Shown: positions 3,750 through 59,486 of the stretch, in pieces
How positions within the stretch are numbered: the first letter of the stretch is position 1
How the letters are laid out: the number at the start of each line of letters is the position of its first letter
NCBI GenBank assembly: GCA_951406725.2
Contig: OX597816.1
Location: 170,748,001 to 170,812,000 of the forward strand
Reading direction: 5' to 3'
Length of the DNA: 64,000 nucleotides
Origin: Octopus vulgaris
Taxonomy: Eukaryota
The notes under the pieces: model-generated
Told to the model about the DNA's origin: nothing
The model's input: the letters and a program-made list of their open reading frames with translations, nothing else
Database searches by the model: none
Made by a program: the position numbers and the translations under genes

Positions 3750-3988
3750 GAGCTGGCATGCGGCGAGCTGGCAGAAACGTTAACACGCCGGGCGAAATGC
3801 TTAGCGGTATTTCGTCTGCGTTACGTTATGAGTTCAAATACCGCCGAGGTCGACTTTGCCTTTCATCCTTTCGGGGTCGATAAATTAAGTACCAGTTACG
3901 CACTGGAGTCGATGTAATCGACTTAATACCTATGTATGTCCTTGTTTGTCCCCTCTGTGTTTAGCCCCTTGTGGGTAATAAAGAAATA
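3750..3988 (+). mobile_element. tRNA-headed Meta-domain-type SINE (family C) with 17-bp TSD
   Basis: GGCGAGCTGGCAGAAACG head, GAGTTCAAAT B-box, GCCTTTCATCCTTTCGGGGTCGATAAATTAAGTACCAG central domain; TSD GGTATTCCCTTTGCTTC at 3733-3749 and 3989-4005. Confidence 0.85.
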
Positions 3989-5208
3989 GGTATTCCCTTT
4001 GCTTCCTCTGGGTGACACCTATGAGGTCAAGAGAGAGGCCATGTTGCTATAAATGCAACAGTGATTCCCTTCATACATAGCAAAGGTACTTCTATATTAC
4101 AAAGCTTAACGGGGAGTCTTCAGACTCACCTGTTCGCTGTACAATATAGTAACCTAATCGATAAGAAATACTCATTTGCATTAGTTTATTGTTTTGCCAG
4201 ATAGTCCTTCACTTTAAACTAGTCTGACAGAAAAATTCAACAAGGTCACAATCACATTTAAAAGCTGTTTTATTTTTATTTCTCTGCGCTCTCTCTCTAT
4301 ATATATACATATATTGAGGCTGTCAGTATTGATTGGGTATACTGAACACGGAGAAATACAATGAAGCTGGAACGGGCAACCTTAGAGAGTAACTACTTAA
4401 CACCGGTCAATAAACTGGTCAATAATTCTAGCCACAAGTTACGTTTATATATAAACCAGTCACAATGTCAATGGTATTGTTTGCCATTTCATCATCAACA
4501 GCCTGCTATTTGCTCCTGACTAACTACCATCTTCTCTTCTAGCACTACCACTCCCGTTACCCTTTCAACATAAACATCATCATCATCATCATCATAAGGT
4601 TGATCATTGTCGTCGACCTCTTCCCCTTCCTCATCATTATCATCGTTATCATCACAATTACCATGATCTGTATTATCCTTATATCCAGTAACAAGATCCG
4701 TGGAGCCTCATCTAAGATGCTTTGAATGTTTTTATTGTTTATCCCTAAGGTGTTCCCCCCTTCACCATCCTATTTTGTACTCTGAAACCAGTAAGATAAA
4801 GATGGCATTATCGAATGTTTTCTATATTTAAAACAGTGCAGTGTGATTTGATAGTGAAGATTGGGCTGCTATTTCCATAAGACATTATGTTTTCAGGTTT
4901 GTTTCTAGTACAAATTATCCATTGAAGCATTGTGTATTTTAACTGCTTCCTGTGAACTAACGATATTTTTACATTTATCAAGCGTTATTTGTTCTATCTG
5001 AACGTTGCTAGCAACATATCTCCACCTACCAGCATTTACTAATAGATACCGAGTTATTCACTCAGTTTTCTTTCTTCTGAATTATCATTTATTCTTTCAT
5101 TTCTACTGGTTTCAGTCATTGGACTACGGCCATAATGAAACAATACCTTCGAAGCTTTTAGTTAAACAGATCAATCATTGAAGTTATTTTAGTCTTCTAC
5201 TAATATCA

Positions 5209-10397: not shown

Positions 10398-10808
10398 TAT
10401 ATATATATGGGTGTGTGGTATAAAGCTTGCTTCCCAACCACATGTTTCCGGGTTCAGTCTCACTGACAAGTGTGTTTTGCTATAGCCTCAGGCCTATCAA
10501 GGCCTTCTGAGTGGATTTGATAGGCGGAAACTGAGAGAAGCCTACACTGATTTTAATACGGACATACAACCTCGCTAGTACATATATGTATCTATATATT
10601 TATATATTTTTATATTATATCATGTATACATGAGTGAACCTATGTATGTTCCGAAGGATTTCGTTACTTTGAAATATATTGAGTGAATATGAACACAGAC
10701 CTTGGAATTTGTTCTCTCTTTCTTGGCTTTTCCATTCCTTGGTTCTGTTAGAGTGCTAATTAGTTGTATATGTACATAAGTATGTATGTATGTCTACATA
10801 TGCATATA

Positions 10809-10868
<60 letters not shown>

Positions 10869-10870
<2 letters not shown>

Positions 10871-11095
10871 GGAGTAAACACATAAATGTGAAACAAGGTG
10901 GAAAAAGAGTACTCAAATACCAGTGGTAGAGTAATGTGCTTTATTTAAAGCAGCAGAAAATTCAACAAAACGTGTTACTCTGAGTTTCCTGTTGCCGTTC
11001 ATCGGACAGTTTTTTCTAGCAAAAACTGTTCGATGAACGGCAACCGGAAACTCAGAGTAACAGGTTTTGTTGAATTTTCTGCTGCTTTAAATAAA

Positions 11096-11096
<1 letters not shown>
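10869..11096. mobile_element. ~228-bp (TA)n-embedded palindromic module with two back-to-back hammerhead motifs (family 5, copy 1)
   Basis: Unique leader CCGGAGTAAACAC.. then palindrome 10939-11096; minus motif 10973-11009 (core CCGATGA), plus motif 11026-11063 (core TCGATGA, degenerate); long (TA)n on both sides; second copy at 21286-21510. Confidence 0.8.
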
Positions 11097-11167
<71 letters not shown>

Positions 11168-11180
11168 ATATATATGTATG

Positions 11181-11260
<80 letters not shown>

Positions 11261-11299
11261 CATGTATGTATGTATGTATACATTTGTGCGCGTGTGTGA

Positions 11300-11507
11300 G
11301 TGTTTTGTATCTGTGTTTGTACCTTGCTGCTAGACATTTGATGTTGGTGTGTTTACGTCTCTGTGACTTAGCAGTTCTGTAAAGAAGACCCATAGAATAA
11401 ATACCAGGCTCACAAAGAATAAACCCTGAGGTGCATTTCTTCGACTAAAAGAACCCTTAAGGCGGTGCGCCAGCATAACCGCAGTCAACTGACTGTAACA
11501 AGTAAAA
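11300..11507 (+). mobile_element. 3' half of SINE family B (diverged)
   Basis: GGTGTGTTTACGTC..ATAGAATAA..TCGACTAAAA..GGCGGTGCGCCAGCAT..GCAGTCAACTGACTG matches family B tail. Confidence 0.65.
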
Positions 11508-11712
11508 AAATATATATATGGTCCCCTATATGTGTGTGTGTGTGTCTGTTTGTGCGTGTGCGTGATTTGATTTGATCTAGTTACAATTCATGAGCTGTGG
11601 TCACAGTTGTGTATAAGTATATATATATATATGTATAGAGAGAGAGAGAGGGTGTATGTGGTTGTGTATAAAATATACGCACACACACACAAATACACAC
11701 ACACACATGTGT

Positions 11713-11751
<39 letters not shown>

Positions 11752-11890
11752 CTCGAATGCTTTTCACGGTGGTGCGCCAGCATGACCATAGTCCAATGGC
11801 TACGACTATTAAAAAGATAAAAGTTTAAAGATGTATATATATATAGATAGATACCAATATATATATATATGTGTGTATGTGTGTGTGTGT

Positions 11891-11986
<96 letters not shown>

Positions 11987-12067
11987 GCACTTAAGCATAG
12001 TGACACTAATAACCTGTTGTGTTAGAATTCAATATACATATGCTGCTTCAGAATAATGTGTTATATA

Positions 12068-12669
12068 CGTACATACATACATTCATACATACATACATAC
12101 ATTCATACATACATACATATATACATACATACATACATACACATACATACATACAATGATACATACATTCATACATACATACATTCATACATACATACAT
12201 ACATGCATACATACATTCATACATACATACATACATGCATACATACATACATACATACATACATGCATACATACATTCATACATACATACATGCATACAT
12301 ACATACATGCATACATACATACATACATACATACAATGATACATACATTCATACATACATACATTCATACATACATACATGCATACATACATACATGCAT
12401 ACATACATACATGCATACATTCATACATACATTCATACATACATACATACATTCATACATACATACATTCATACATACATACATGCATACATACATACAT
12501 GCATACATACATTCATACATACATACATACATACATACATTCATACATTCATACATACATACATAGATACATACATACATACATTCATACATACATACAT
12601 GCATACATACATGCATACATACATTCATACATACATACATACATTCATACATACATACATGCATACATT

Positions 12670-12703
<34 letters not shown>

Positions 12704-12867
12704 CATACATTCATACATACATTCATACATACATGCATACATACATGCATACATTCATACATACATACATACATACATGCATGCATTCATACATACATAC
12801 ATACATACCTGCATACATACATACATACATACATACATACATACATACATACATACATGCATACATT

Positions 12868-12898
<31 letters not shown>

Positions 12899-12900
12899 GC
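12068..12900. repeat. ~830-bp (TACA)n satellite with TTCA/TGCA variants
   Basis: Direct reading; source of the HTYI/MYVC pseudo-ORFs. Confidence 0.97.
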
Positions 12901-13619
12901 ATATGTGTGTGTGTGCCTGGATGGATAGGTGGATGGATGATATACAAGATAGTAGAATAAGAGAGAGAAAACCATGTACAGTCAGAGAATTGTGAATGAC
13001 AGATACAAAGAGAAACAAGGAGTCATGTATTTCAAGGGTCTAACGTAAAAAAACGAAAACCAAGGAAGAAGAATTCTGTCCATTAACTTGTCAATAACAT
13101 CCTTTGTCAAATTTCATTTGTTCTCTGTGACGTTCATATAATAAAGATTATGTATGGTTGACAGCCCTCGCGTGATTAAGAAATATCTAAACGTTTGGGA
13201 ATATAATATTTTTTCCGTAAAAAATATCGCTGACAACTTTCAGATCAATATCATTAAACTATCAAATAGTTAATAAAATATTTTAAACTCAGTCGGCAAT
13301 ATCCTTCATAAAATATCATCCAAAATGAAAATAGTTACAACAAATGTCTATACTCTTCACATTTTTTTCTTTTTACTTTTCTTTGGTGTTGTTTTCACAT
13401 TTTAGGGGTTTTTTTCAAGATTTTAACTGTAAATTCGCTAAATGATTTTCTTTTGCTAGTGTAAATAGAAAAACAAAAATTTTCTTCAGAAATGCAAAAT
13501 TGATAATCTTACTTCAAGTTATGTTACTAAATTATACATCTTTAAAGCAATAATGGGGATTAGAGACGCTGTGGTGATATTAGAGATAAAGAATACCAAC
13601 AAACATACAAAACGACAGA

Positions 13620-13625
13620 AAGGAA

Positions 13626-13677
<52 letters not shown>

Positions 13678-13710
13678 ACGAGAAAGAAAGAAATAAGGAA
13701 GGAAAGAAAG
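13620..13710. repeat. (GAAA)n tract
   Basis: Direct reading. Confidence 0.9.
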
Positions 13711-13970
13711 TGAAATAGTTGAGATGGAAGTCAGCAGCTGTTTACAGTAAATGAGAAGTAGAATGAACTTCTTGGAACTACCTAACAGCACAGGCATTTG
13801 CTTATCCTGTAGAGAATTATGAAGTCATTCCATTATATGCAAAACTTCAGTATATTATTCAACAATGGTTTTATACCTTTTCTTTACTGGACTATTATTC
13901 ACTACATACATACATGCATACATTCATACATACATACATGCATACATGCATACATTCATACATACATACA

Positions 13971-14115
13971 TTCCCTCTGCTCTCTCACTCCCCTTCTCTC
14001 TCCCCCTCCCCCTCTTTCCTCCTTCCTCCCTCTCCTCCTCCCCTTCCATCTCCCCCTCCTCTCTCTCCCCCTCCTCTCCTCCCCCTCCCCTTCTCCCCCT
14101 CCCCCTCTTCTCCTC
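13971..14115. repeat. Polypyrimidine C/T low-complexity tract
   Basis: About 145 nt almost entirely C/T. Confidence 0.9.
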
Positions 14116-14550
14116 ACTACACCACACGACTTTACACATCACATCATATATGATGTGCCATACTAATACATACACCAACTAATAATACTAATACGTACTA
14201 ATACATACTAATACATACTAATACATACACCAACCCTATACATACACACGTCCAGACCCCTCATACGCACTTATACTCTCTCATACACACACACACACAC
14301 TTATACATACTAATACGTACTAATACATACTAATACATACTAATACATACACCAACCCCATACATACGCCTGTCCAGACCTATCCTAGGGTCATTCAACC
14401 CTATTATCAACCCTATTATCTCCCCTTATTTCGCTCTCGCGTCTCATGTTTGATCTTTGACCTCTGGCCGAAATCAGATCGCCATGTTGATTCGTTAGTT
14501 ACTGCACGCATTTTTTTCTCTCCTTTCTGTGTTTTTTTTCTCTCTGTGTA

Positions 14551-14588
14551 TCTTTATGTTGAAGAGCGTAGGCTCGAAACGTTAAAGA
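14551..14588 (+). ncRNA. Degenerate hammerhead-like motif related to family 3
   Basis: TCTTT ATGTTGA A GAGC-GTAG-GCTC GAAA CG TT AAAGA: stems I-III match 1574-1608 architecture but core is ATGTTGA not CTGANGA; downstream TTCCTGAGCGCC resembles TTCCTGGGCGTCC after the 1574 motif. Confidence 0.5.
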
Positions 14589-14687
14589 CTTATTTTATTT
14601 ATATTTCCTGAGCGCCATACCAATACAATTGTTTGTTTGTTTTCCACCTGCCTTCGTCTTTTGTCTATTTTCATAAAGCTTCCCGTT

Positions 14688-15472
14688 ATATACATACATA
14701 CATACATACATAAATACATACATACATACATACATAAATACATACATGCATACGTTCATACATACATACATACATACGTACATACATACATACATACATG
14801 CATACATACATACACACATTCACACATTCATACATACATACACACATACATACATACATACATACATGCATACATTCATACATACATACATGCATACATT
14901 CATACATACATATATACATACATACATACAAATACATACATGCATACATTCATACATACATACATACATACATACATACATACATACATACATACATACA
15001 TACATACATACATACATTCATACATACATACATACATACATACATGCATACATACATACACACATTCACACATTCATACATACATACATACACACATACA
15101 TACATACATGCATACATTCATACATACATACATACATACATGCATGCATGCATTCATACATACATACATACATACATACATAATGCATACATACATACAT
15201 AAATAGATGCATGCATGCATACATACATACATACATACATACATACATACATACATACATACATACATACATACATACATACATTCATGCATTCATGCAT
15301 GCATGCATGCATGCATGCATGCATACATACATACATACATACATACATACATACAGACATACATACATACATACATACATACATACATACATTCATTCAT
15401 ACATACATACATACATACATACATACATACATACATACATACATACATACATACATACATACATACGTACAT
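14688..15472. repeat. ~780-bp (TACA)n/(TGCA)n satellite
   Basis: Direct reading. Confidence 0.97.
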
Positions 15473-15848
15473 ATGAGCTGGGTTCGTAATTTCGGCGTAA
15501 ATAAAACACAAATATGCCCAGGAAATATGAGTGCTATATACACTCGATATACAGTCTCAATTTCCTTTTGCCTTCATCAACACCCACCTGTATTGTCCAT
15601 CTCCCTCTCACACCTGTTTCTTCTCTCCTTGCCAAAATAGCATTTTTCAAGACAATGTTAACCATTATTCCACTAGAAATAAAAAATCTAATTTTCTCCA
15701 AATCCCAAATCCTACACTTTTAAAGCCAATAATACAACTGGATCTGAAAAATCGGGGGACATTGCTGTGTCTTTAGGTCGTAGATCTGAATGGTCCGTCA
15801 TTTATGACAATAACGCTATAATATTGTACTAACAGGGACCAACTCTCT

Positions 15849-15849
15849 T

Positions 15850-15926
<77 letters not shown>

Positions 15927-15932
15927 CTATCT
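15849..15932. repeat. (TCTA)n microsatellite
   Basis: Direct reading. Confidence 0.95.
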
Positions 15933-16079
15933 CATCTCTCCTTTTTTCTGAAAGAAAACAGGCTATTCATCGTTTAGCTCTATCGCATAATAAATGAATT
16001 TCTCATTCTTTATTTGTTTTCTTGTAACTATATACAAATCACCACATCGCTTCAGAAACTTGTAGCAGTTACCTCAAAT

Positions 16080-16945
16080 TACGAGGGGGTACCCAAACGA
16101 AACCGGAATTTTGTAATATTATTTTATTCACTTAGTTTTACATATTTACATTTTCATAGCCTTCAAATTATTCTCCATTTGAATCAATGCATCGGTCCAG
16201 GCGCATTTCCCATTATTCGAAGCAGTGCTGGAACTCTTGCGAAGTGATGCCTTCTAACGCCTCCGTCGTTTTTTTCTTCACATCTTCCCCATCAGCAAAC
16301 TCCATTGCACCAGCTTTCGTCTTTCTTCACTAGTGATGACCTTCGAAAAAAGGTCTGGATCAACTTCCAACTGGTCTTTCAGTTCACGACATGCATTCAA
16401 ATTTTGCTGCAACTCTTTTCATTCGCAATCCCTCGCTAAAAATTCGTTGGCAGGAGTTCCAGGACATATTTGTCATATCAATAAATTCGTCAATTATTAT
16501 TCGAGGACGGTATTCCAAAAACGTATTTTCATGTTTTCATTTGTTCGGGAGGTCGCTAGTCATCGTAAACGAGGTTGCTCTCCAAGCGACGAGTGACCAT
16601 TCCTAAAGCCTGAAAACCACTCGTAAATTTGCGTTTTGCTCATGGCAGCGTCCTTGCAACCTGTTTGAAGAATGTCAATTGTTTCGTCCACCTTTTTTCC
16701 CAGTAGAGAAACGAATTTAATCAAAGCACGCTGTTCCTTCGTTGCAGCCATCGCATAAGTCGACGAACTGGGGAGAAGTACTGCAAAACAAAGACGCTCC
16801 ACGAGGCAGTACATCATCCGATATCGCCAGCCGGCAGACTGATATCTGAAGGCTACATCAACTGGCCTCTAGGAACCAAAGCCTGAACTACAACGGGTTT
16901 GTCCCACAGAGAATGTTTTCGGTTACTTTTGAGCACCCCCTCGTA
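16080..16945 (-). mobile_element. Internally deleted mariner element with TIRs and TA TSD
   Basis: TIRs TA-CGAGGGGGTACCCAAA.. / ..TTTGAGCACCCCCTCG-TA; minus ORF 16560-16817 has EQRALIKF..MSKTQIYEWFSGFRNG..EQPR, a mariner transposase N-terminal HTH. Confidence 0.82.
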
Positions 16946-16988
16946 CGATGCCGAATTACAGTTACAAAGACCGAAATCATGGCGATAA

Positions 16989-17368
16989 TCTTTATATATA
17001 AAAGTGAGGTTGTGTGCTGTCTGTCTCCTACGATTTAGATTCCTAACTACTCCCACATTTTGTGGTGCAGTTTAACCAAAACCGGGTATCTTATAGTTGT
17101 GATTCATATTGAGCCCTTCTGGGTATTAGCGCGCGTCTACAATGAGTCTACGATTTTTTTTTTAAATTACCATCATTTTTTCCCATTTTTAATGCATTTT
17201 TGGCATATATAAGGGAAGTAACTCTCTAAAAATTTATTATTAAATCTCAGAACGTAAAAGCTACAGTAACACCCCCCCCCCTTTGTGGCTATTATACTTT
17301 ACATCTCTAAAAATGCTTATATAGTTATTTCCCTTACAAACCCGAGCAACGCCGGGCGATACTGCTAG
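16989..17368 (+). mobile_element. Non-autonomous Helitron
   Basis: A|TC 5' end (TCTTTATATATAAAAG), 3' hairpin CCCG-AGCAACGC-CGGG, CTAG|T end, no TSD; same family as 27053-28358. Confidence 0.82.
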
Positions 17369-20274
17369 TAAGTTATATGATAGCTTGCGTCACATTCAAG
17401 AGCAATTCCACCGTTAAAGTTATATACGTTTTTGTGCAGTGTTTTTGTCACCCTTTTATACTGAAACGATCTCCGTCTTGATACAAAGTCTACACTTATG
17501 AGAGAATATAGACAACCAGTGTTACAGCCTATACTCGAACGATATGAATTAAATGAGCTTCAGCAAAGATTATATTCATTAATAAGTCAATATTGCTTCC
17601 TATCTATGATTACAAAATGTCCTGCTAATTATCATATGATTCAGGAAATACAGTTCAAATGTTGGGAAGTAGTTACTTAAAAGCTGAATAAATCATAGGA
17701 AAACAAGAAAAATACAAAACATGTAGCATATACAACATGAGATTTTTTCTCAAACATATTTTATGCATTTTTTTAAAAGGTATTTTGGAAAATAAAGTTA
17801 TGTATATTTGTGAGTATGCATGTGTCTGTGTACATAAAATGTATTAAAATATTTTCAAATAGTTCAAATATCCCGCTCCCGAAAGAGTGTATGGACAGAT
17901 TATGTAGTAAATTGTCATTTAATTTATAAATATACTCACTGTTTCCGTGTGAATTGGATGCACAGCAAAAAGGGAAGAAGCAAGCAAAATTCCTTCTTTA
18001 TGCTTCTCCGTCTTTCCCCAAATTGTGGCTGTTACGCCTAGGCACATTAAGGAGTTTAGAACGTGGAGTCCAATATTAAATTTATGAAAGCTTTTGGGAT
18101 TTAGAGACCCAAATAAATGATGTTGTAGCCTGGAATTGAAAGAGTTTGTTTTGAATAGTAACTTGCTAATACTCGATATAAAAGCAACTTACAAAACACT
18201 ATGTCACAACCGCTTACGTGATGACTTTCGACTTGCATTGAAAGCAATTATTGACAACCTGGTATAAATGATTCACTCAAATTATTATTTTCTTACAGAG
18301 ACACGCCTATAAATTTATAATTGCAGATAAGATTAGTCATATCTGTCCTTGTATTAGCAATAATTCGGAAATTGTTTGGCTTCAAAGTGGAATAAACCAT
18401 CTCGCTTTCACGATTACTGTAGAGCGCTCTTTCTTAATACTCAATGACTTGTCCATGTTAAACAACGCTTTTGATTCATTGCCAATAGTTGTGAGATAAA
18501 TGCATTAATTTATATTCTGTTTGTCTCAAATCATTTTATGCAGACATAGCTCATAGCTTTTCATCCTTTATTACATGATAGTAATTAGGTGTTACAAGAG
18601 AAATGTGTTTGATTGCATGTATCCTATTGATTTGAATAAATCATATTTGTTATTTTGACTCTGCTAACAGGGCTCTTATCATTGAACGTTATCTAACAAT
18701 CCATGACTGAATATTTCATTTGGCTATCTGATTGATCTACCATTTATATAACGTTAGAATACTTACTATCAAGAAACCAGAATTAGGCACACTTTAGTAT
18801 TATAAAAGCAGCATGGTTCTCTCACAAATAACTGGTGAATCGTTAGTGTATATTGTTTTTATTGTAGTCTGGAATGAACACCAAGTTTATTAGGCTGTCC
18901 ACTATCTGATATTATAAAGGCTGAATACAATTGACAAATAGGTATTTATTTCGGGTCAGTTTCGTATATAAAAACACATAATCTTTATTTGCATACAATT
19001 TACTTTGTAGTTAAGTACATGGAAGTTCGTAAAAAATAAAACTCTGGGGGGAATATTTAATGCAAATTTAAACACGTTTTCTATGTGATGGATTTTCTAT
19101 ATTAACATCGAAAGAACGGGATCAGTTTCTTGAGAATTGAAACATTGATTCTTCTAATCCTCGCCCATTGAATTATGTATGAAGTTCCTCGTGGACTAAT
19201 TTATTAGGTATCACATTAAAAAACATTTCGTGAAGTTAATACGGAGGCTGTTTCGGAAATAAATGACCGACGAACAAATTTAGCTACTCAATTCACTATT
19301 GGATTATGTAATGTGATAAATTTGTTGTCTCAAAACGTCAACACTGAATGATTAATTTCTGTAATTTATACGAATTTATATAATCTAACCGGGTGGGAAA
19401 CGCGTGTTTACAGAGCAGGAGCTGGATACAATCTAATTACGTCGAAATTGCGATACTTTACTTGCCAGATACATATGATTAAAGTGTAATCTAAATCAAA
19501 CTTTCATTATGGATTATATAAATCAAATTTGCTTACGTGCATAGGTGTGGGTGACAGCGTGTATCCATGTATATATGTGTGAATATACGTATAATTTATG
19601 GATATATACATGAGTGTGTGCGTGCGTATGTGTGTGTATGTGTGATGAATGATGAGATCTTGCCTCACTTATTGGCTGTGAAGGTGAAGATGAAATCTGT
19701 TTCTTTTAAATTGTTCCCAAGTAGCTAGATTTGCGGATGATTGAGAGTATAGACTAGATTATCTTCAAATTTTCCTACGGCTAATATTTACCATTAGTGG
19801 TATTTGAACAAATGCGGCATACATGAGTAGATTACATATGTGTGCGTGTCTGTGAGCTTTTCTGTGTATACATGTACAGAAAAGTGTAGTGATTGGAAGA
19901 AATGAATAGGAATATATTAAGGGTATTTCAAAATAACTTTAATAAGATTTATAGTATTCCTTTGGGATATGACAAGATTGGTTGCATGTAAGGAAGTGGT
20001 GCTATTGGTTAAGTAATGAAGCGGTTAGATTTACACATAATCTTCAATTATTTCCGATGACTATATAATTCAAGATCAATGCCATATATTGTATATAAGT
20101 TTAATGTGCCTCAGTGGATCTGTATGTATATCATTATGTTTATCTTTTTATGCGTGTCTGTAAATGCGAATCCCAAACTCATAAGTAAATATAATCCGTC
20201 ACAATACAGAAGTATATCTATTATATTTATTTCATATTTTGTGTTGATTTCTACATCAGATAGTGTTTAGATAA

Positions 20275-20566
20275 GGCACATGGCTCAGTGGTTAGAGTGT
20301 CGAGCTCACAGTCATGCGGTAGTGTGCTCAATTTCCAGACCAGTCTATGTACTGTGTTCTTGAGCAAGGTATTTTATTTTCACGTTGCTCCAGCTGTAGA
20401 AATGGGTTGCTGTATCGGCCTTTGCCTTTCTCTTGGATAAGATCGGTGCGTGGAGAGGGGAAGCCGGTATTCATGGGCGACTGTTGGTCTTCCATAAACA
20501 ACTTTGCCCGGACTTGTGCCTGGGAAGGTAACTTTCTAGTTCATTCATGACCGAAGGGGGTTCTTT
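20275..20566 (+). mobile_element. tRNA-headed SINE with CORE-like block (older family)
   Basis: TGGCTCAGTGGTTAG A-box; TGTGTTCTTGAGCAAG CORE-like motif. Confidence 0.6.
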
Positions 20567-21222
20567 ATATATAGAGAGAGAGGGGGTAGACAGAGAGAGT
20601 AAAAGGGATTGAGGGAGACAGATAGAGGGAGACACGGAGAGAAAAAGGAAAGAGGGAGACAGAGGGGAAACAGAGAAAGAAAAGGGACAGAGAGAGAGAG
20701 AGAGAGTAAACGTAGATGAATTAGGTGATTTAAGAGTTTACCCCAGGAAACACTTGCATGATCGGTGGCTACCTGAAATTGTATTCAGGATATAATTTCT
20801 AGCGTGGAAACTTAGGCTTCAAGCAAACAGAAAATGCATAAGATTTTCTTCCGTCGCGGAGTATAAACAGTAAAGAGTGGAGTTATGGTTTATAATTGTT
20901 TCGACAACTCGCAGTTGACCAATCGCACATCATGTTTATAGATATTTATGATTACGAAGAATTGTTCATGCCTATTATGTAACGTACATTACACAATAGT
21001 TGTAATTTAATCATAACCGTTGGATGAATATTGCACCTATCGGTTATAAATTAAATGACTACTGATATTATTATGTAAACTGAAGTACGTAATGTGCAAG
21101 CCTAAATAGTTGTTACTATCAATGTGTCTATAAACACGATGATTGACAAGTCGCATGCAAGTTGTTGAAGCAACTAAAAACCATAGAATAAACGTAATAT
21201 CCACAACTACATTCGTCACCTA

Positions 21223-21287
<65 letters not shown>

Positions 21288-21387
21288 GGAGTAAACACAT
21301 AAATGTGATACAAGGTGGAAAAAAGAGTACTCAAATACCAGTGGTAGAGTAATATGCTTTATTTAAGCAGCAGAAAATTCAACAAAA

Positions 21388-21424
21388 TGTTACTCTGAGT
21401 TTCTCGTTGCCGTTCATCAGACAG
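21388..21424 (-). ncRNA. Minimal type I hammerhead motif (family 5)
   Basis: Minus strand: CTGT CTGATGA A CG-GCAA-CG A GAAA CTC-A-GAG TA ACA; canonical core, very short stem II, GUA site. Confidence 0.62.
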
Positions 21425-21439
21425 TTTTTGCTAGAAAAA

Positions 21440-21477
21440 CTGTCTGATGAACGGCAACGAGAAACTCAGAGTAACAG
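21440..21477 (+). ncRNA. Minimal type I hammerhead motif (family 5)
   Basis: CTGT CTGATGA(21444-21450) A CG-GCAA-CG A GAAA CTC-A-GAG TA ACAG; stem I CTGT/ACAG. Confidence 0.66.
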
Positions 21478-21510
21478 ATTTTGTTGAATTTTCTGCTGCT
21501 TTAAATAAAG

Positions 21511-21541
<31 letters not shown>

Positions 21542-21674: not shown

Positions 21675-21831
21675 TAAGTCGATAAAATCAACTCCAGTGC
21701 TAAGCTGGAACTTATTTAATCTACAGTAGAAGGATGAAAAGAGAAGTCGACCACGGCGGAATTTGAACGTAAAGACAGACGAAATGCCAAGTATTTTCCC
21801 GGCGCTAACGATTCTGCCAGCTCACAGCCTT
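21675..21831 (-). mobile_element. Diverged SINE family C
   Basis: Reverse complement of GAGCTGGCAGAATCGTTAGCGCCGGG..TTCAAATTCCGCCG.GGTCGACTT..TTTCATCCTT. Confidence 0.65.
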
Positions 21832-23071
21832 TAAGAAAATATCAATGTCGCAGAACAAGTGTTATGCGATTATATAACAAATTGGTCTTTTTATTTGGAA
21901 TTTGATAACTATAATTAATACTTGATTTATACATATAATGTCGAAAGTTATAACATTTAGATGAAAGCGAGGAAATTACTAAGAAACGGAGGAGATTTGG
22001 GTCAAAAGAAATTAACTAAAGGAATTTCCTGAAATAAATTAAAATTGTGGAAGCATTAAAGTTATCTGATCTGAATGTTCCATGTTAGGAATAAATATAT
22101 ATTTGAATTAAGCCATCAAAAATAGTATTACTAAAGCTAGAAATTATAGGATATTAAAAATTATAGGATAGTAAAGTTATAAAATTATTTTAAACATTTA
22201 TACAGAATTTATACAACCTGGTAACTATTGCAAAATTCAAAAATGTCTCAATAACTTTTTCTGATCTCGATTCAGTAGAGTGTAATATATCTTTGAGTAG
22301 AGATAACCAACTGTTTCGAAGCTGTACAGATCAGATTTGATTTACTGCATATCGCATTAAATTTATGGTGTTAATATAGTGTGTGTATAAGAGACGACAG
22401 GCAGAATCTTAAGAGCACTCTGTCTTCCTATGTCGATGAAATACTGGTGAAGTATTAGAATTGTTTTAGTTGACTATACCTTTACCCAATTTTTGTAGTC
22501 TTGTGTTACTTCTAAAAAGGACTACTGTATCTGTAATATATTGCTGAAGACTAGTATGATGAAATCTGTGTACAATGCACATGCATTGTTATCTAAATAT
22601 CAAAATACAAATTCGAAATCTAAAATGCTTGTCGCACACTTCAAAGCTTGTCTTTTAGAACATGTATCTAAAGAAATAATGGAACTGTATCTTGGAAAAT
22701 CAACGTAATTCTGATATGCTGGAATAGCTTATCTCAGCAAACCGATTCAAGAAGGAAACATTATTTTTTCTACCAAACGAAGTTCTAAAATTATAAATAA
22801 TACTTTTTGCAATATTACCACTGATTCAGCATTGCACATCTTACAAGTTTCTGACACGACACATGTCACCCAAATCCTGCCATGACTCTATTCAACAGTA
22901 TGTCTTCCTCTGTATTTATTTATCTATAACTGTATATTTGTATTTCTTTATATCTATGTATCTAGTTACCTTCACATCTATCCACTTATCTATCCATCTA
23001 CCCATCCAAAGATACATATCTATTCAACCATCTTACACACTATTCGCCATTCCACCTACTTTGAACCATGT

Positions 23072-23966: not shown

Positions 23967-24358
23967 AAGGCAGCGAGCTGGCAGAATCGTTAGCACTCCG
24001 GGCGAAATGATTAGCGGAATTTCGTCTGCCCTTACGTTCTGAGTTCAAACACCGCCGAGATCGACTTTGCCTTTCATCCTTTCAGGGTCGATTAAATAAG
24101 TACCTCTTACGCACTGGGGTCGATGTAATCGACTTAATCCCTTTGTCTGTCCTTGTTTGTCCTCTCTTTGTTTAGCCCCTTGTGGGTAGTAAAGAAATAG
24201 GTATTTCGTCTGCCGCTACGTCGACTTTGCCTTTCATCCTTTCGGGGTCGATTAAATAAGTACCAGTTACACACTGGGGTCGATGTAATCGACTTAATCC
24301 CTTTGTTTGTCCTTGTTTGTCCTCTCTATGTCTAGTCCCCTGTGGGCAATAAAGAAAT
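23967..24358 (+). mobile_element. SINE family C with tandem second body unit, 16-bp TSD
   Basis: Head plus two body units; TSD AAATATATATTTCAGA at 23951-23966 and 24359-24374. Confidence 0.85.
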
Positions 24359-24672
24359 AAATATATATTTCAGATCACGATATTATTTTTGTCAATTTCT
24401 CAGTAGATTCCTATAGTTCAAATTTATACCTCTTTCTCCATATCATGAATAATCTCTTAGTAATATACTATTTTAAATGGAAAAGATATGTGATTCTTTA
24501 TGCATGGATATATGTACGAGTCTTTGAATTTTATTCGATTCCAAAATTCGTAACCCTGCGAATATGGACGGAAAACAAATGAATAATGCAATGGTATTTA
24601 AATTTCGTCAAAAATATATTTGATAAGGCATCTGCTTTTCATAAACTATATAAAAGATAAGAGATGACTTAC

Positions 24673-26965: not shown

Positions 26966-27052
26966 TGTCATTTAATTTTGACGTAAATAAATGAAGACAA
27001 GTTTATGCACGTTCATTGAATTTACGCATAATGAACCTGTTTTATTTCGATA

Positions 27053-28358
27053 CTAGCAGTATCGCCCGGCGTTGCTCGGGTTTGTAAGGGAAATAACTAT
27101 ATAAGCATTTTTAGAGAGTTATAGCCAAAAAATAGCAAAAAAATGCATTAAAAATGGAAAAAAAATGATGGTAATTTTTTTTTTAATCGTTGACTCATCG
27201 TAGACATTTTTAGAGAGTTACTTCCCTTATATAATAGTGAAAAAATGCATTAAAATGGAAAAAAAATGATGGTAATTTTTTTTTTTAATCGTAGACTCAT
27301 CGTAGACGTGCGCTAATACCCAGAAGGGCTCGATATGAATCACGACTATAAGATACCCGGTTTTGGTTAAACTGCACCGCAAAATGTGGGAGTAGTTAGG
27401 AATCTAAATCGTACGAGACAGACACACAACCTTACTTTTATATATAAAGACTAGCAGTATCGCCCGGCGTTGCTCGGGTTTGTAAGGGAAATAACTATAT
27501 AAGCATTTTAGAGAGTTATAGCCAAAAAATAGCAAAAAATGCATTCAAAAAAAAAATGATGGTAAATTTTTTTTTAAATCGTTGACTCATCGTAGACATT
27601 TTTAGAGAGTTACTTCCCTTATATAATAGTGAAAAAATGCATTAAAATGGAAAAAAAATGATGGTAATTTTTTTTTTTAATCGTAGACTCATCGTAGACG
27701 TGCGCTAATACCCAGAAGGGCTCGATATGAATCACGACTATAAGATACCCGGTTTTGGTTAAACTGCATCGCAAAATGTGGGAGTAGTTAGGAATCTAAA
27801 TCGTAGGAGACAGACACACAACCTTACTTTTATATATAAAGACTAGCAGTATCGCCCGGCGTTGCTCGGGTTTGTAAGGGAAATAACTATATAAGCATTT
27901 TTAGAGAGTTACTTCCCTTATAGAAGCCAATTCGGGCTTTCTTAGCCATTTCTGTTTTGGTGTCTTCAAGCCATGAAGTCGTTGTTCTAAAAGAACGCTG
28001 GTCTCCTTGACAACGCATTACGACGTTGATTTCCTTAAACTCCCTTCCCCACAGCTTCACGAGGGAGGGAAGAAGGGGGAGAAGCAAACACAGGTGCAGG
28101 TGTTTGAGCGTGGACGCCAACTCCGCCGCCATCGACACACGAAAAATTATGCATTAAAATGGAATAAAAAATGATGTTAAATTATTTTTAAAATCGTAGA
28201 CTCATCGTAGACGCACGCTAATAGCCAGACGGGCTCGATATTAATCACGACTATAATATACCCGAATTTGGTTAAACTGCACCGCAAAATGTGGGAGGAG
28301 TTAGGAATCTAAATCGTAGGAGACAGACACTACACAACTAGAGTTTTATATATAAAGA
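27053..28358 (-). mobile_element. Head-to-tail trimer of non-autonomous Helitron (27053-27450, 27451-27842, 27843-28358)
   Basis: Each unit has a TC start and hairpin plus CTAG end on the minus strand; junctions read CTAG|TC with no spacer; the third unit has a different internal segment. Confidence 0.85.
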
Positions 28359-46431: not shown

Positions 46432-47180
46432 AGGCGGCGAGCTGGCAGAAACGTTTGCACGCCGGGCGAAATACGTAGTCATATTTCGTCTGCCGTTACG
46501 TTCTCAGTTCAAATTTGGCCGCGGTCGACTTTGCCTTTCATCCTTTCGGGGTCGATTAAATACATACCATTTACGCACTAGGGTCGATGTAATCGACTTA
46601 ATCCGTTTGTCTGTCCTTGTTTGTCCCCTCTGTGTTTCGCCCCTTGTGGGTAGTAAAGAAATAGGTATTTCGTTTGCCGTTACGTTCTGAGTTCAAATTT
46701 CGCCGATGTCAACTTTGCCTTTCATCATTTCGGGGTCGATTAAATAAATACCAGTTACGCACTGGGGTCGATATAATCGACTCAATCCGTTTGTCTGTCC
46801 TTGTTTGTCCCCTCTGTGTTTCGCCCCTTGTGGGTAGTAAAGAAATAGGTATTTCATCTGCCATTACGGTCTGAGTTCAAATTCCGCCGAGGTCTACTTT
46901 GCCTTTCATCCTTTCGGGGTCGATAAATTAAGTACCAGTTACGCACTGGGGTCGATATCATCGACTTAATACGTTTATCTGTCCTTGTTTATCCCCTCTG
47001 TGTTTCGCCACTTGTGGGTAGTAAAGAAATATGTATTTCGTCTGACTTTATGTTCTGAGTTCAAATTCCGCCGAGATAGACTTTGTCTTTCTTCCTTTCG
47101 GGGTCGGAAAATCAAGTACCAGTTGCGTACTGGAGTCGATCTAAACGACTGGCCTCCTCCCCAAAAATTGAGCCTGGAGT
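46432..47180 (+). mobile_element. SINE family C with four tandem 184-bp body units
   Basis: Single head at 46432; units start at 46481, 46665, 46849 and 47033 (period 184); last unit diverges at its 3' end. Confidence 0.88.
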
Positions 47181-59414: not shown

Positions 59415-59486
59415 TTTCCATGCCGGGAATCGAACCCGGGCCGCCTGGGTGAATGCCAGGAATTCTAACCACTAGACCCCATTGTT
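59415..59486 (-). pseudogene. tRNA-Glu(TTC) pseudogene
   Basis: Minus strand GGTCTAGTGGTTAGAATTCCTGGCATTCACCCAGGCGGCCCGGGTTCGATTCCCGGCATGGAAA matches eukaryotic tRNA-Glu; anticodon stem CCTGG/CCAGG and T-arm intact; 5' acceptor strand unpaired and U33 replaced by A. Confidence 0.85.

What the first reader, a model, noticed from the sequence alone, without database searches (positions are those of the whole stretch)
10869..21510. Same palindromic double-hammerhead unit inserted twice with identical ends in (TA)n
Seen: both copies start CCGGAGTAAACAC, end TTTAAATAAAG and fold at nearly the same centre, so the palindrome is part of the mobile unit, not a one-off. In copy 2 both arms share variants (CTGATGA, CAACGAGAAA) that differ from copy 1. 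Inference: the second arm is templated from the first at each insertion, or arms are homogenised by conversion; a discrete ~225-nt non-autonomous ribozyme element.
Basis: partly seen in the sequence, partly recalled or inferred. Interest (0 to 1): 0.72.

Follow-up and report, generated by a model that had tools for sequence, protein, structure and literature searches.

The report
Twin run-off stubs of Penelope retroelement
The two mirror-image inserts are real and belong to thousands of short head-to-head stubs of a Penelope-type jumping gene in TA repeats; they are likely rebuilt at each insertion from two DNA copies that probably run off the capped start of the gene's RNA, rather than being a mobile ribozyme element of their own.

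Summary
Both copies are real: 93% alike, same ends, unrelated flanks. They are not a discrete element. The end 20-mer occurs 5,973 times in the genome and belongs to a 3.36-kb Hydra-clade Penelope-like element (PLE) with intact ORFs. In a position-ordered sample, 70 of 85 resolved loci carry an inverted second arm, folding at ~80 to >2,600 nt; only 17 look like the 225-mer. Arms share subfamily alleles (117 of 121 loci at one site), but private alleles are mirrored in 2 of 67, so no conversion. Centres vary (26 strings in 54 loci) and 53 of 55 units have one tailed and one tail-less end. New here: arm lengths hit a ceiling at an initiator-like site 155 nt from the tail end, with excess G just before it (62 of 100 vs 24 of 92), likely run-off at a capped RNA start. 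Each strand has one hammerhead, predicted buried in the hairpin. The layout is published, and this scan noted it before, also in this genome.

The parts
10804..10868 (.). (TA)n target tract, left of copy 1
10869..10938 (-). copy 1: one-sided PLE 'tail' (element positions R1-R71 counted from the tail end); in the parent it runs on into the 5' leader of the ORF
10939..11019 (-). copy 1: tailed arm, pLTR end R72-R152 with hammerhead motif and AATAAA
10972..11009 (-). copy 1: minimal type I hammerhead motif, core CCGAUGA, helix I and II mismatched
11016..11019 (.). copy 1: self-complementary CTAG at the head-to-head join, resolved as TTCTAGC
11016..11096 (+). copy 1: tail-less inverted arm ending AAATAAAG
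11026..11063 (+). copy 1: hammerhead motif with decayed core (UCGAUGA)
11097..11259 (.). (TA)n-rich tract, right of copy 1
21225..21285 (.). (TA)n target tract, left of copy 2
21286..21356 (-). copy 2: one-sided PLE tail (R1-R71)
21357..21434 (-). copy 2: tailed arm, pLTR end with hammerhead motif (about 21389-21424; 2-nt deletion in helix I)
21431..21434 (.). copy 2: CTAG join, resolved as GCTAGAA
21431..21510 (+). copy 2: tail-less inverted arm ending AAATAAAG
21440..21477 (+). copy 2: intact minimal type I hammerhead motif (CUGU, CUGAUGA, short helix II with GCAA loop, GAA, ACUC-A-GAGU, A, ACAG); predicted cut after 21473
   Evidence: same layout as Hydra-clade motifs in PMC8557442 file S2
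21511..21539 (.). (TA)n tract, right of copy 2

Best explanation
Each insert is two short copies of the end repeat of an autonomous Hydra-clade Penelope-like retrotransposon lying head to head in a TA repeat, likely made anew at each insertion when both nicked target strands prime reverse transcription on the same RNA and the two DNA copies probably run off its capped start and are joined there. Shown: the parent (3,355-nt period, 727-codon open frame, 71 exact tail-to-leader junctions), the family size, the one-tail/one-no-tail rule, the spread of fold points, the ceiling at R152-157, and arm concordance without conversion. Inferred: (1) the RT-GIY-YIG protein nicks both strands of (TA)n; (2) one strand primes at R1, the other at about R72 using ATAT homology to the target, as the two internal start sites of the anole PLE do in vitro; (3) when priming is in the 5' pLTR the template ends at R155 (initiator-like CCATTCT, TATAGA at -30, CCAAT at about -80), so both cDNAs are at most ~155 nt, like a strong-stop cDNA; (4) their 3' ends anneal through CTAG flanked by G.A mismatches and are repaired one way or the other, giving the recurrent 225-234-nt product; (5) priming on longer (3' pLTR, tandem or circular) templates gives the same layout with arms of up to kilobases. 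The hammerheads are passengers from the pLTR and are predicted not to fold in a read-through hairpin.
For: Parent and kilobase palindromes with the same two ends. End counts 5,973 (tail) and 4,416 (tail-less next to TA), controls 0. 53 of 55 centre-picked units have exactly one tail. Arm-end density 5.5 per nt at R150-157 vs 0.10 at R158-199; 59 of 70 two-armed loci have both arms <=157. 20-mer counts 5,445 (R125-144) vs 1,514 (about R193-212). 472 arms start exactly at R155 after a non-native purine vs 92 at matched control R141; G in 62 of the first 100 vs 24 of 92, Fisher p 6e-7. Four of five arms that abut a TA tract directly at R155 carry an extra G (L238, L299, L317, L333; L227 has A). 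Arms are both short or both long in 67 of 70 loci, p 4e-8. Twelve long inverted pairs differ at 28 of 13,749 sites (other loci median 0.6-3.3%). Arm 2 longer in 32, arm 1 longer in 13 loci; 12 of 70 tailed arms stop at <=R85, near the second start. Two RT start sites, both strands extended, dimer predicted: PMC11167929. Hairpin -125.2 vs -54.7 kcal/mol with the hammerhead forced.
Against: The start site is not measured: no raw RNA reads were on offer and contigs cannot show starts. 42 of 60 G's before R155 also fit the partner arm, mostly at R152, and G is also in excess before R154 (63 of 78, confounded by A>G changes). The extended helix I of the hammerhead also ends exactly at R155, so structure could set the ceiling. 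Of 16 upstream pLTR pieces in 15 full-length loci none stops at R155 (35-78 in three, ~160 in one, 246-2,538 in twelve), so long copies need another template class. Same-RNA priming cannot be told from two RNAs of one source, nor fully from fold-back copying followed by deletions. A few loci have arms that differ at two or more diagnostic sites (L051, L212, L219). RT and nuclease are assigned from motifs and look-alikes; Pfam and PDB sequence searches gave nothing.
Confidence: 0.68

Rival explanations
1. Fold-back self-priming: one cDNA (or an antisense template, as proposed in PMC3846280) snaps back at its end and is copied, and the nuclease trims one end to leave the one-sided tail.
For: Explains arm concordance, short/long coupling and palindromic centres. 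11 private alleles are mirrored in long pairs. It is the published reading of PLE junction palindromes.
Against: Arm 2 exceeds arm 1 by >20 nt in 21 of 70 loci, by ~1 kb in L062, and arm 1 often stops inside or just past the tail, so arm 2 holds sequence that arm 1 lacks; this needs frequent one-sided loss afterwards. The tail-less end is fixed and shows a primer-like mismatch in about 100 of 130 loci. Both arms can end at R155 independently (L243/L244, L236/L237).
Confidence: 0.13
2. Same two-primer model, but the ceiling at R155 is a structural stop or processing site at the foot of the hammerhead's extended helix I, not a capped start.
For: Helix I extends to pair ATTC (R155-152) with GAAT; several joins use that ATTC homology (L232, L252, L253, L332); full-length copies do not stop at R155.
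Against: Extra G between a TA tract and R155 in 4 of 5 direct joins and G excess over the control; initiator, TATA-like and CCAAT motifs at canonical spacing; PLE pLTRs are reported to hold the start site. Polymerases usually stall entering a helix, not leaving it (recalled).
Confidence: 0.14
3. One reading: a discrete non-autonomous palindromic ribozyme element is copied whole from palindromic masters, with arms kept alike by conversion.
For: The 40 best BLAST hits are all full-length 225-mers at 96-100%; about 930-1,860 loci have both arms reaching the centre (1,864 strand-wise matches).
Against: That sample is picked by likeness; only 17 of 85 position-ordered loci are of this form. 26 centre strings in 54 loci, shared across subfamilies. 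Private alleles mirrored 2 vs 65. The stubs lack the upstream promoter motifs and the protein-binding leader expected from PMC11167929 (inferred).
Confidence: 0.04

Closest known systems
Hydra-clade Penelope-like elements (Craig et al. 2021, PMC8557442; passages, section 11, supplement part 2 seen)
   Same: Single ORF, RWK and DKT motifs, C-terminal GIY-YIG-type domain with CxxC and CxH, canonical short hammerhead near the 3' end, (TA)n targets, partial tandems, inverted 5'-truncated copy, one-sided tail.
   Different: 3.36 kb with a ~1.2-kb 3' UTR (most are <3 kb); linker reads CxFx5C instead of CxCx5C; tail 66-71 nt instead of 30-40; hammerhead differs from that listed for Hydra-1_oBim, so another family; most insertions are pLTR-only stubs.
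Inverted pLTR with junction palindrome and tail (Arkhipova et al. 2013, PMC3846280; passages seen)
   Same: Head-to-head pLTRs, overlap at the join, optional tail, TATA plus initiator motifs in the pLTR, solo pLTRs.
   Different: That paper reads the palindromes as self-priming on an antisense template; the arm-length data here favour two primers on a sense RNA ending at a fixed 5' end.
Poseidon_Ac in vitro reaction (Frangieh et al. 2024, PMC11167929; parts 1-2 of 4 seen)
   Same: Two internal RT start sites that define the tail, both target strands cut and extended, AT-rich target, uncleaved RNA as substrate.
   Different: Other clade; the paper leaves second-strand steps and inversion untested in the parts read; no run-off product described there.
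Opposite-strand pairs of minimal hammerheads, 100-700 bp apart, from truncated PLEs (Cervera and de la Pena 2014, PMC4209133; passages seen)
   Same: Two minimal type I motifs on opposite strands; short palindromic helix III.
   Different: Noted in Schistosoma without a mechanism.
Non-LTR retrozymes (bioRxiv 10.64898/2026.07.22.740005; part 1 of 5 seen)
   Same: Small, non-coding, type I hammerhead, PLE-pLTR origin.
   Different: Retrozymes are head-to-tail tandems with two or more sense hammerheads; this is head to head, one per strand.
Retroviral minus-strand strong-stop DNA and L1 twin priming (recalled, no call)
   Same: Short cDNA from an internal primer to the capped 5' end; two target-strand primers on one RNA joined by microhomology.
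   Different: Primed by target DNA, integrated as a product, and the two arms overlap in template rather than abut.

Membership tests
Hydra-clade PLE | Single ORF, RT then C-terminal GIY-YIG-type nuclease | tested here: inconclusive
   727-codon frame with FDIIDFYPSI, YRDD, GVVYRA..YTG by eye; Pfam and PDB no hit; look-alike clusters at 0.96-0.98 carry HTH_animal, GIY-YIG, RVT_1 on part of their members; homolog P0006 lists PF01541; fold job never returned
Hydra-clade PLE | RWK motif | tested here: met
   LRWK in P0004; RWK/RWR in 40 of 40 aligned
Hydra-clade PLE | DKG changed to DKT | tested here: met
   SDKTRN; 39 of 40
Hydra-clade PLE | Linker CxCx5C | tested here: inconclusive
   This family has CxFx5C; 37 of 40 aligned relatives have CxCx5C
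Hydra-clade PLE | CxxC and CxH around the conserved E and N | tested here: met
   CRLCLLEK ... LNQRSE ... CRH
Hydra-clade PLE | Canonical hammerhead in the pLTR | tested here: met
   against file S2 layout; cleavage not tested
Hydra-clade PLE | (TA)n insertion | tested here: met
   84 of 89 tail ends abut >=3 TA units; 4,416 tail-less ends followed by TA
Hydra-clade PLE | Placement in the Hydra clade of an RT tree | not tested
PLE complex insertion (inverted 5'-truncated copy plus one-sided tail) | Inverted truncated copy at the 5' end | tested here: met
   70 of 85 resolved loci
PLE complex insertion (inverted 5'-truncated copy plus one-sided tail) | Tail on one end only | tested here: met
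   53 of 55
PLE complex insertion (inverted 5'-truncated copy plus one-sided tail) | Partial tandem forming a pLTR in full-length copies | tested here: met
   15 of 20 long loci fetched; 71 exact junctions
Non-LTR retrozyme | Head-to-tail tandem with two or more sense hammerheads | tested here: not met
   Head to head, one motif per strand
Non-LTR retrozyme | Circular or unit-length RNA | not testable with these tools
   Only contigs were offered
Non-autonomous palindromic element copied as a unit (MITE- or SINE-like) | Fixed internal structure and shared arm-specific variants | tested here: not met
   26 centres in 54 loci; fold point ~80 to >2,600 nt; 113 of 154 one-arm allele classes are singletons, the largest recur in both arms

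The most novel reading that the evidence does not exclude
Most insertions of this PLE are integrated 'strong-stop' products: a dimeric enzyme primes both target strands, once at each of two fixed sites in the 5' pLTR of one capped RNA, both cDNAs run off the cap (leaving a cap-copied base) and anneal head to head. This would explain PLE inverted pLTRs and the one-sided tail without self-priming, map a promoter from insertion ends alone, and suggest that long copies need a strand transfer or a tandem/circular template.
Probability: 0.5. Interest if true: 0.62.

Novelty: new member of a known kind. Interest (0 to 1): 0.38.

Why it matters
As an object it is ordinary: the published insertion layout of Penelope-like elements. 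Its value is statistical. How PLE inversions and tails form is stated as open in PMC8557442, and thousands of young stubs give sharp, testable predictions: one primer at each of two sites, one template for both arms, and a hard stop at a likely capped start. It also warns that such stubs will be mis-called as MITEs or twin-ribozyme RNAs, and that roughly a thousand or more near-perfect ~80-bp hairpins are scattered in this genome as possible dsRNA sources (not tested).

Tried and rejected
Rfam at gathering score: no hammerhead hit. Pfam on the C-terminus, the full ORF and 40 aligned proteins, and PDB sequence search: nothing useful. Structure prediction was submitted and still unfinished, so no fold search was run. 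Sequencing runs: no RNA holder listed; all rows were contigs. Laying four RNA-guess runs on the parent showed summed word depth of 2-120 over the ORF part and hundreds to ~15,000 over the 155-nt unit, but contigs cannot show starts or levels and host read-through of thousands of stubs would give the same. Laying four further runs on copy 2 found no contig spanning an empty site, so target duplication and polymorphism stay open. The BLAST-best 30 loci were rejected as a sample of structure because they are picked by likeness. A sub-peak of arm ends at the predicted hammerhead cut (about R110) was looked for and not seen (11 of 155 arm ends in R100-119). The R154 control was confounded and replaced by R141. 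Gene conversion and local duplication were rejected; one true local duplicate pair, L185/L186, stayed in the 130-locus set. Three of 88 position-ordered loci were left out as unresolved (L046, L070, L103); L001 and L024 were dropped as repeats of copy 2 and L114; arm ends were hand-curated. Look-up of earlier findings by sequence returned nothing. Literature searches for a run-off or twin-priming account of PLE inversions listed none; subscription papers (Arkhipova 2006, Schostak 2008, not seen), parts 3-4 of PMC11167929 with its supplements, 58 of 59 parts of the PMC8557442 supplement (searched by term only) and closed bioRxiv supplements may bear on this.
Full report
Observation. Both copies are in the window as described: 10869-11096 and 21286-21510, 93% identical, same first 13 and last 11 bases, in (TA)n tracts, with unrelated 1-kb flanks and no third copy in the window. 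Each is a 70-71-nt unique end plus a ~158-nt inverted repeat around CTAG. The centres are not the same: copy 1 reads TTTTTTCTAGCAAAAA, copy 2 TTTTTGCTAGAAAAA. Each strand holds one sense hammerhead motif; only copy 2 + passes a strict descriptor, and Rfam finds none at gathering score.

Family. The genome is 2.8 Gb in 227 contigs; size, contig count and microsatellite load suggest an octopod (recalled, not tested). The 40 best DNA hits are all full 225-mers at 96-100%, which at first looks like a fixed element. An exact 20-mer of the unique end occurs 5,973 times, control 0. I took the first 89 of these matches in positional order (88 loci). Of 85 resolved, 70 have the layout (TA)n, arm 1 from R1 to x, inverted arm 2 from y back to R67-72, (TA)n, and 15 lack a second arm; x and y run from ~30 to 2,668, and 17 loci have both arms at 145-157 like the window copies (positions R count from the tail end on natural copy L159). 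L061 and L062 are 3.3- and 4.4-kb palindromes with the same two ends, holding a 1.2-kb 3' UTR and the end of an ORF.

Parent. A protein search scored 150 of 3,927 candidates, many in frames of 727 codons. Twenty such loci were fetched: period 3,355 nt, with the hammerhead and tail directly before the ORF and again at the 3' end; 15 show an upstream pLTR piece. The tail-to-leader junction occurs 71 times. The protein has RWK, DKT, YRDD, a C-terminal GVVYRA..YTG, CxxC and CxH, matching the Hydra clade as defined in section 11 of PMC8557442; its linker is CxFx5C where 37 of 40 aligned proteins have CxCx5C. Pfam and PDB searches were blank; atlas look-alikes at 0.96-0.98 carry HTH_animal, GIY-YIG or RVT_1 on part of their members; 1,079 relatives were found. 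No tree with named references was made. The hammerhead listed for Hydra-1_oBim differs, so this is another family.

Is the palindrome inherited or rebuilt? In 130 two-armed loci (28 BLAST-best, the rest position- or centre-picked) arms of one locus differ at 202 of 8,610 sites vs 5.6% between loci; six diagnostic sites agree in 117 of 121, 115 of 122, 107 of 111, 107 of 109, 106 of 107 and 101 of 107 loci. Private alleles are mirrored in 2 cases and one-armed in 65, so arms are not homogenised later. One-arm alleles are mostly singletons (113 of 154 classes) and the largest classes recur in both arms. Of 65 loci among the first 100 centre matches I fetched the 55 not already held: 54 parsed give 26 centre strings, and common types recur in several subfamilies. 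Twelve long inverted pairs differ at 28 of 13,749 ORF sites. So both arms come from one source at insertion, and the join is made each time.

Two fixed starts. 53 of the 55 centre-picked units have one tailed and one tail-less end; the other two have no tail. Tail-less ends followed by TA number 4,416. At that end the element's G71 is replaced by the TA-phase base in about 100 of 130 loci, as a mismatched target primer on ATAT would leave. This fits the anole PLE, which in vitro cuts and extends both strands and starts at two internal sites that bound the tail (PMC11167929). Arm 2 is the longer in 32 loci, arm 1 in 13; by more than 20 nt in 21 vs 8, which a simple fold-back copy of arm 1 (the self-priming reading of PMC3846280) gives only with later one-sided loss. 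Arms are both short or both long in 67 of 70 loci (p 4e-8), which points to one template.

Why 225 nt recurs. Arm ends reach 5.5 per nt at R150-157 and fall to 0.10 at R158-199; exact 20-mers fall from 5,445 inside to 1,514 just beyond. R155 is the A of CCATTCT, with TATAGA 30 nt and CCAAT about 80 nt upstream (motif meanings recalled). 472 arms begin at R155 after a non-native purine against 92 at control R141, and that base is G in 62 of the first 100 vs 24 of 92. Of 97 such arms read in context, 42 of 60 G's also fit the partner arm, so most are ambiguous; but four of five arms that abut a TA tract directly carry a G that neither side supplies. An extra 5' G is the usual trace of copying a cap (recalled from L1). 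Against this: G is also in excess before R154 (63 of 78), the hammerhead's extended helix I ends at R155 too, none of 16 upstream pieces of full-length copies stops at R155, and no raw RNA reads were available. Two cDNA ends reaching R152-155 can pair through CTAG with flanking G.A mismatches; resolving these either way gives GCTAGC, TCTAGC or GCTAGAA, the three commonest centres and the two different window centres.

Ribozymes. The motif has the short Hydra layout with a palindromic helix III, a type expected to need a tandem dimer and weak in vitro (PMC4209133). In the palindrome, forcing the fold costs 70 kcal/mol (-54.7 vs -125.2), in the parent's 5' end 4.7. They are best read as passengers.

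What is known. The layout is published (PMC8557442, PMC3846280, PMC8969392 passages), as are opposite-strand hammerhead pairs. Earlier unchecked notes of this scan reached the same class, one with the short-end/long-end rule in this genome; I had measured that rule before reading them. Eight literature searches listed no paper that ties PLE stubs to run-off at the start site, but coverage is partial.

Verdict. Real, correctly seen, a new family of a known kind; the unit-element reading fails, the one-source-per-insertion reading holds. Class assignment about 0.95, whole mechanism 0.68, capped run-off with same-RNA twin priming about 0.5. Interest 0.38.

Noticed in passing
L151-L167 (upstream pLTR pieces): Upstream pieces of full-length copies end at R35-78 (three), ~160 (one) or 246-2,538 (twelve), never at R155; long copies seem to need a tandem, circular or strand-transfer template. 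The AATAAA at R78-73 would also end an mRNA before most of the tail, so tails may come from the 5' pLTR.
   Followed up: partly
L152 (G000:C4:134760600-134770500): Two complete 727-codon ORFs head to head, 99.9% alike over 3 kb, each with its own pLTR piece.
   Followed up: partly
L051, L117, L212, L219: Arms differ at two or more diagnostic sites; possible rare two-template insertions or plain decay.
   Followed up: no
L048/L049 (G000:C1:4678458 and 4679186): Two stubs of different subfamilies 728 nt apart; L052 and L038 also hold second stubs within 500 nt, so insertions cluster locally.
   Followed up: no
L185/L186 (G000:C1:121193296 and 121194628): Two stubs with the same unusual centre 1.3 kb apart: a true local duplication.
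   Followed up: no
L200, L185, L187, L225, L193 centres: Short templated or TA inserts at the join (for example CAGACAG, TTTTTT, (TA)n), as polymerase-theta-type end joining leaves (recalled).
   Followed up: no
L038, about 270-420 nt from its tail end: A more diverged relative (86%) of the pLTR end and tail next to the young stub; older subfamilies have helix II ACG/CGT with a GGAA loop.
   Followed up: no
window 59420-59482 (-): tRNA-like match, 30.8 bits in Rfam, not called by ARAGORN; probably a pseudogene or SINE head.
   Followed up: partly
window 3807-4106, 24018-24359, 46482-47150, 21680-21850: A very abundant dispersed repeat, partly in 160- and 184-nt tandem units, likely a SINE.
   Followed up: no
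window 27052-27911: 392-nt tandem repeat, 2.2 copies at 97%, with an internal 102-nt repeat.
   Followed up: no
L151:3300-4500: T>C and A>G differences are the commonest kind in some RNA-guess contigs (X5: 11 T>C); subfamily variation and editing cannot be told apart here.
   Followed up: no
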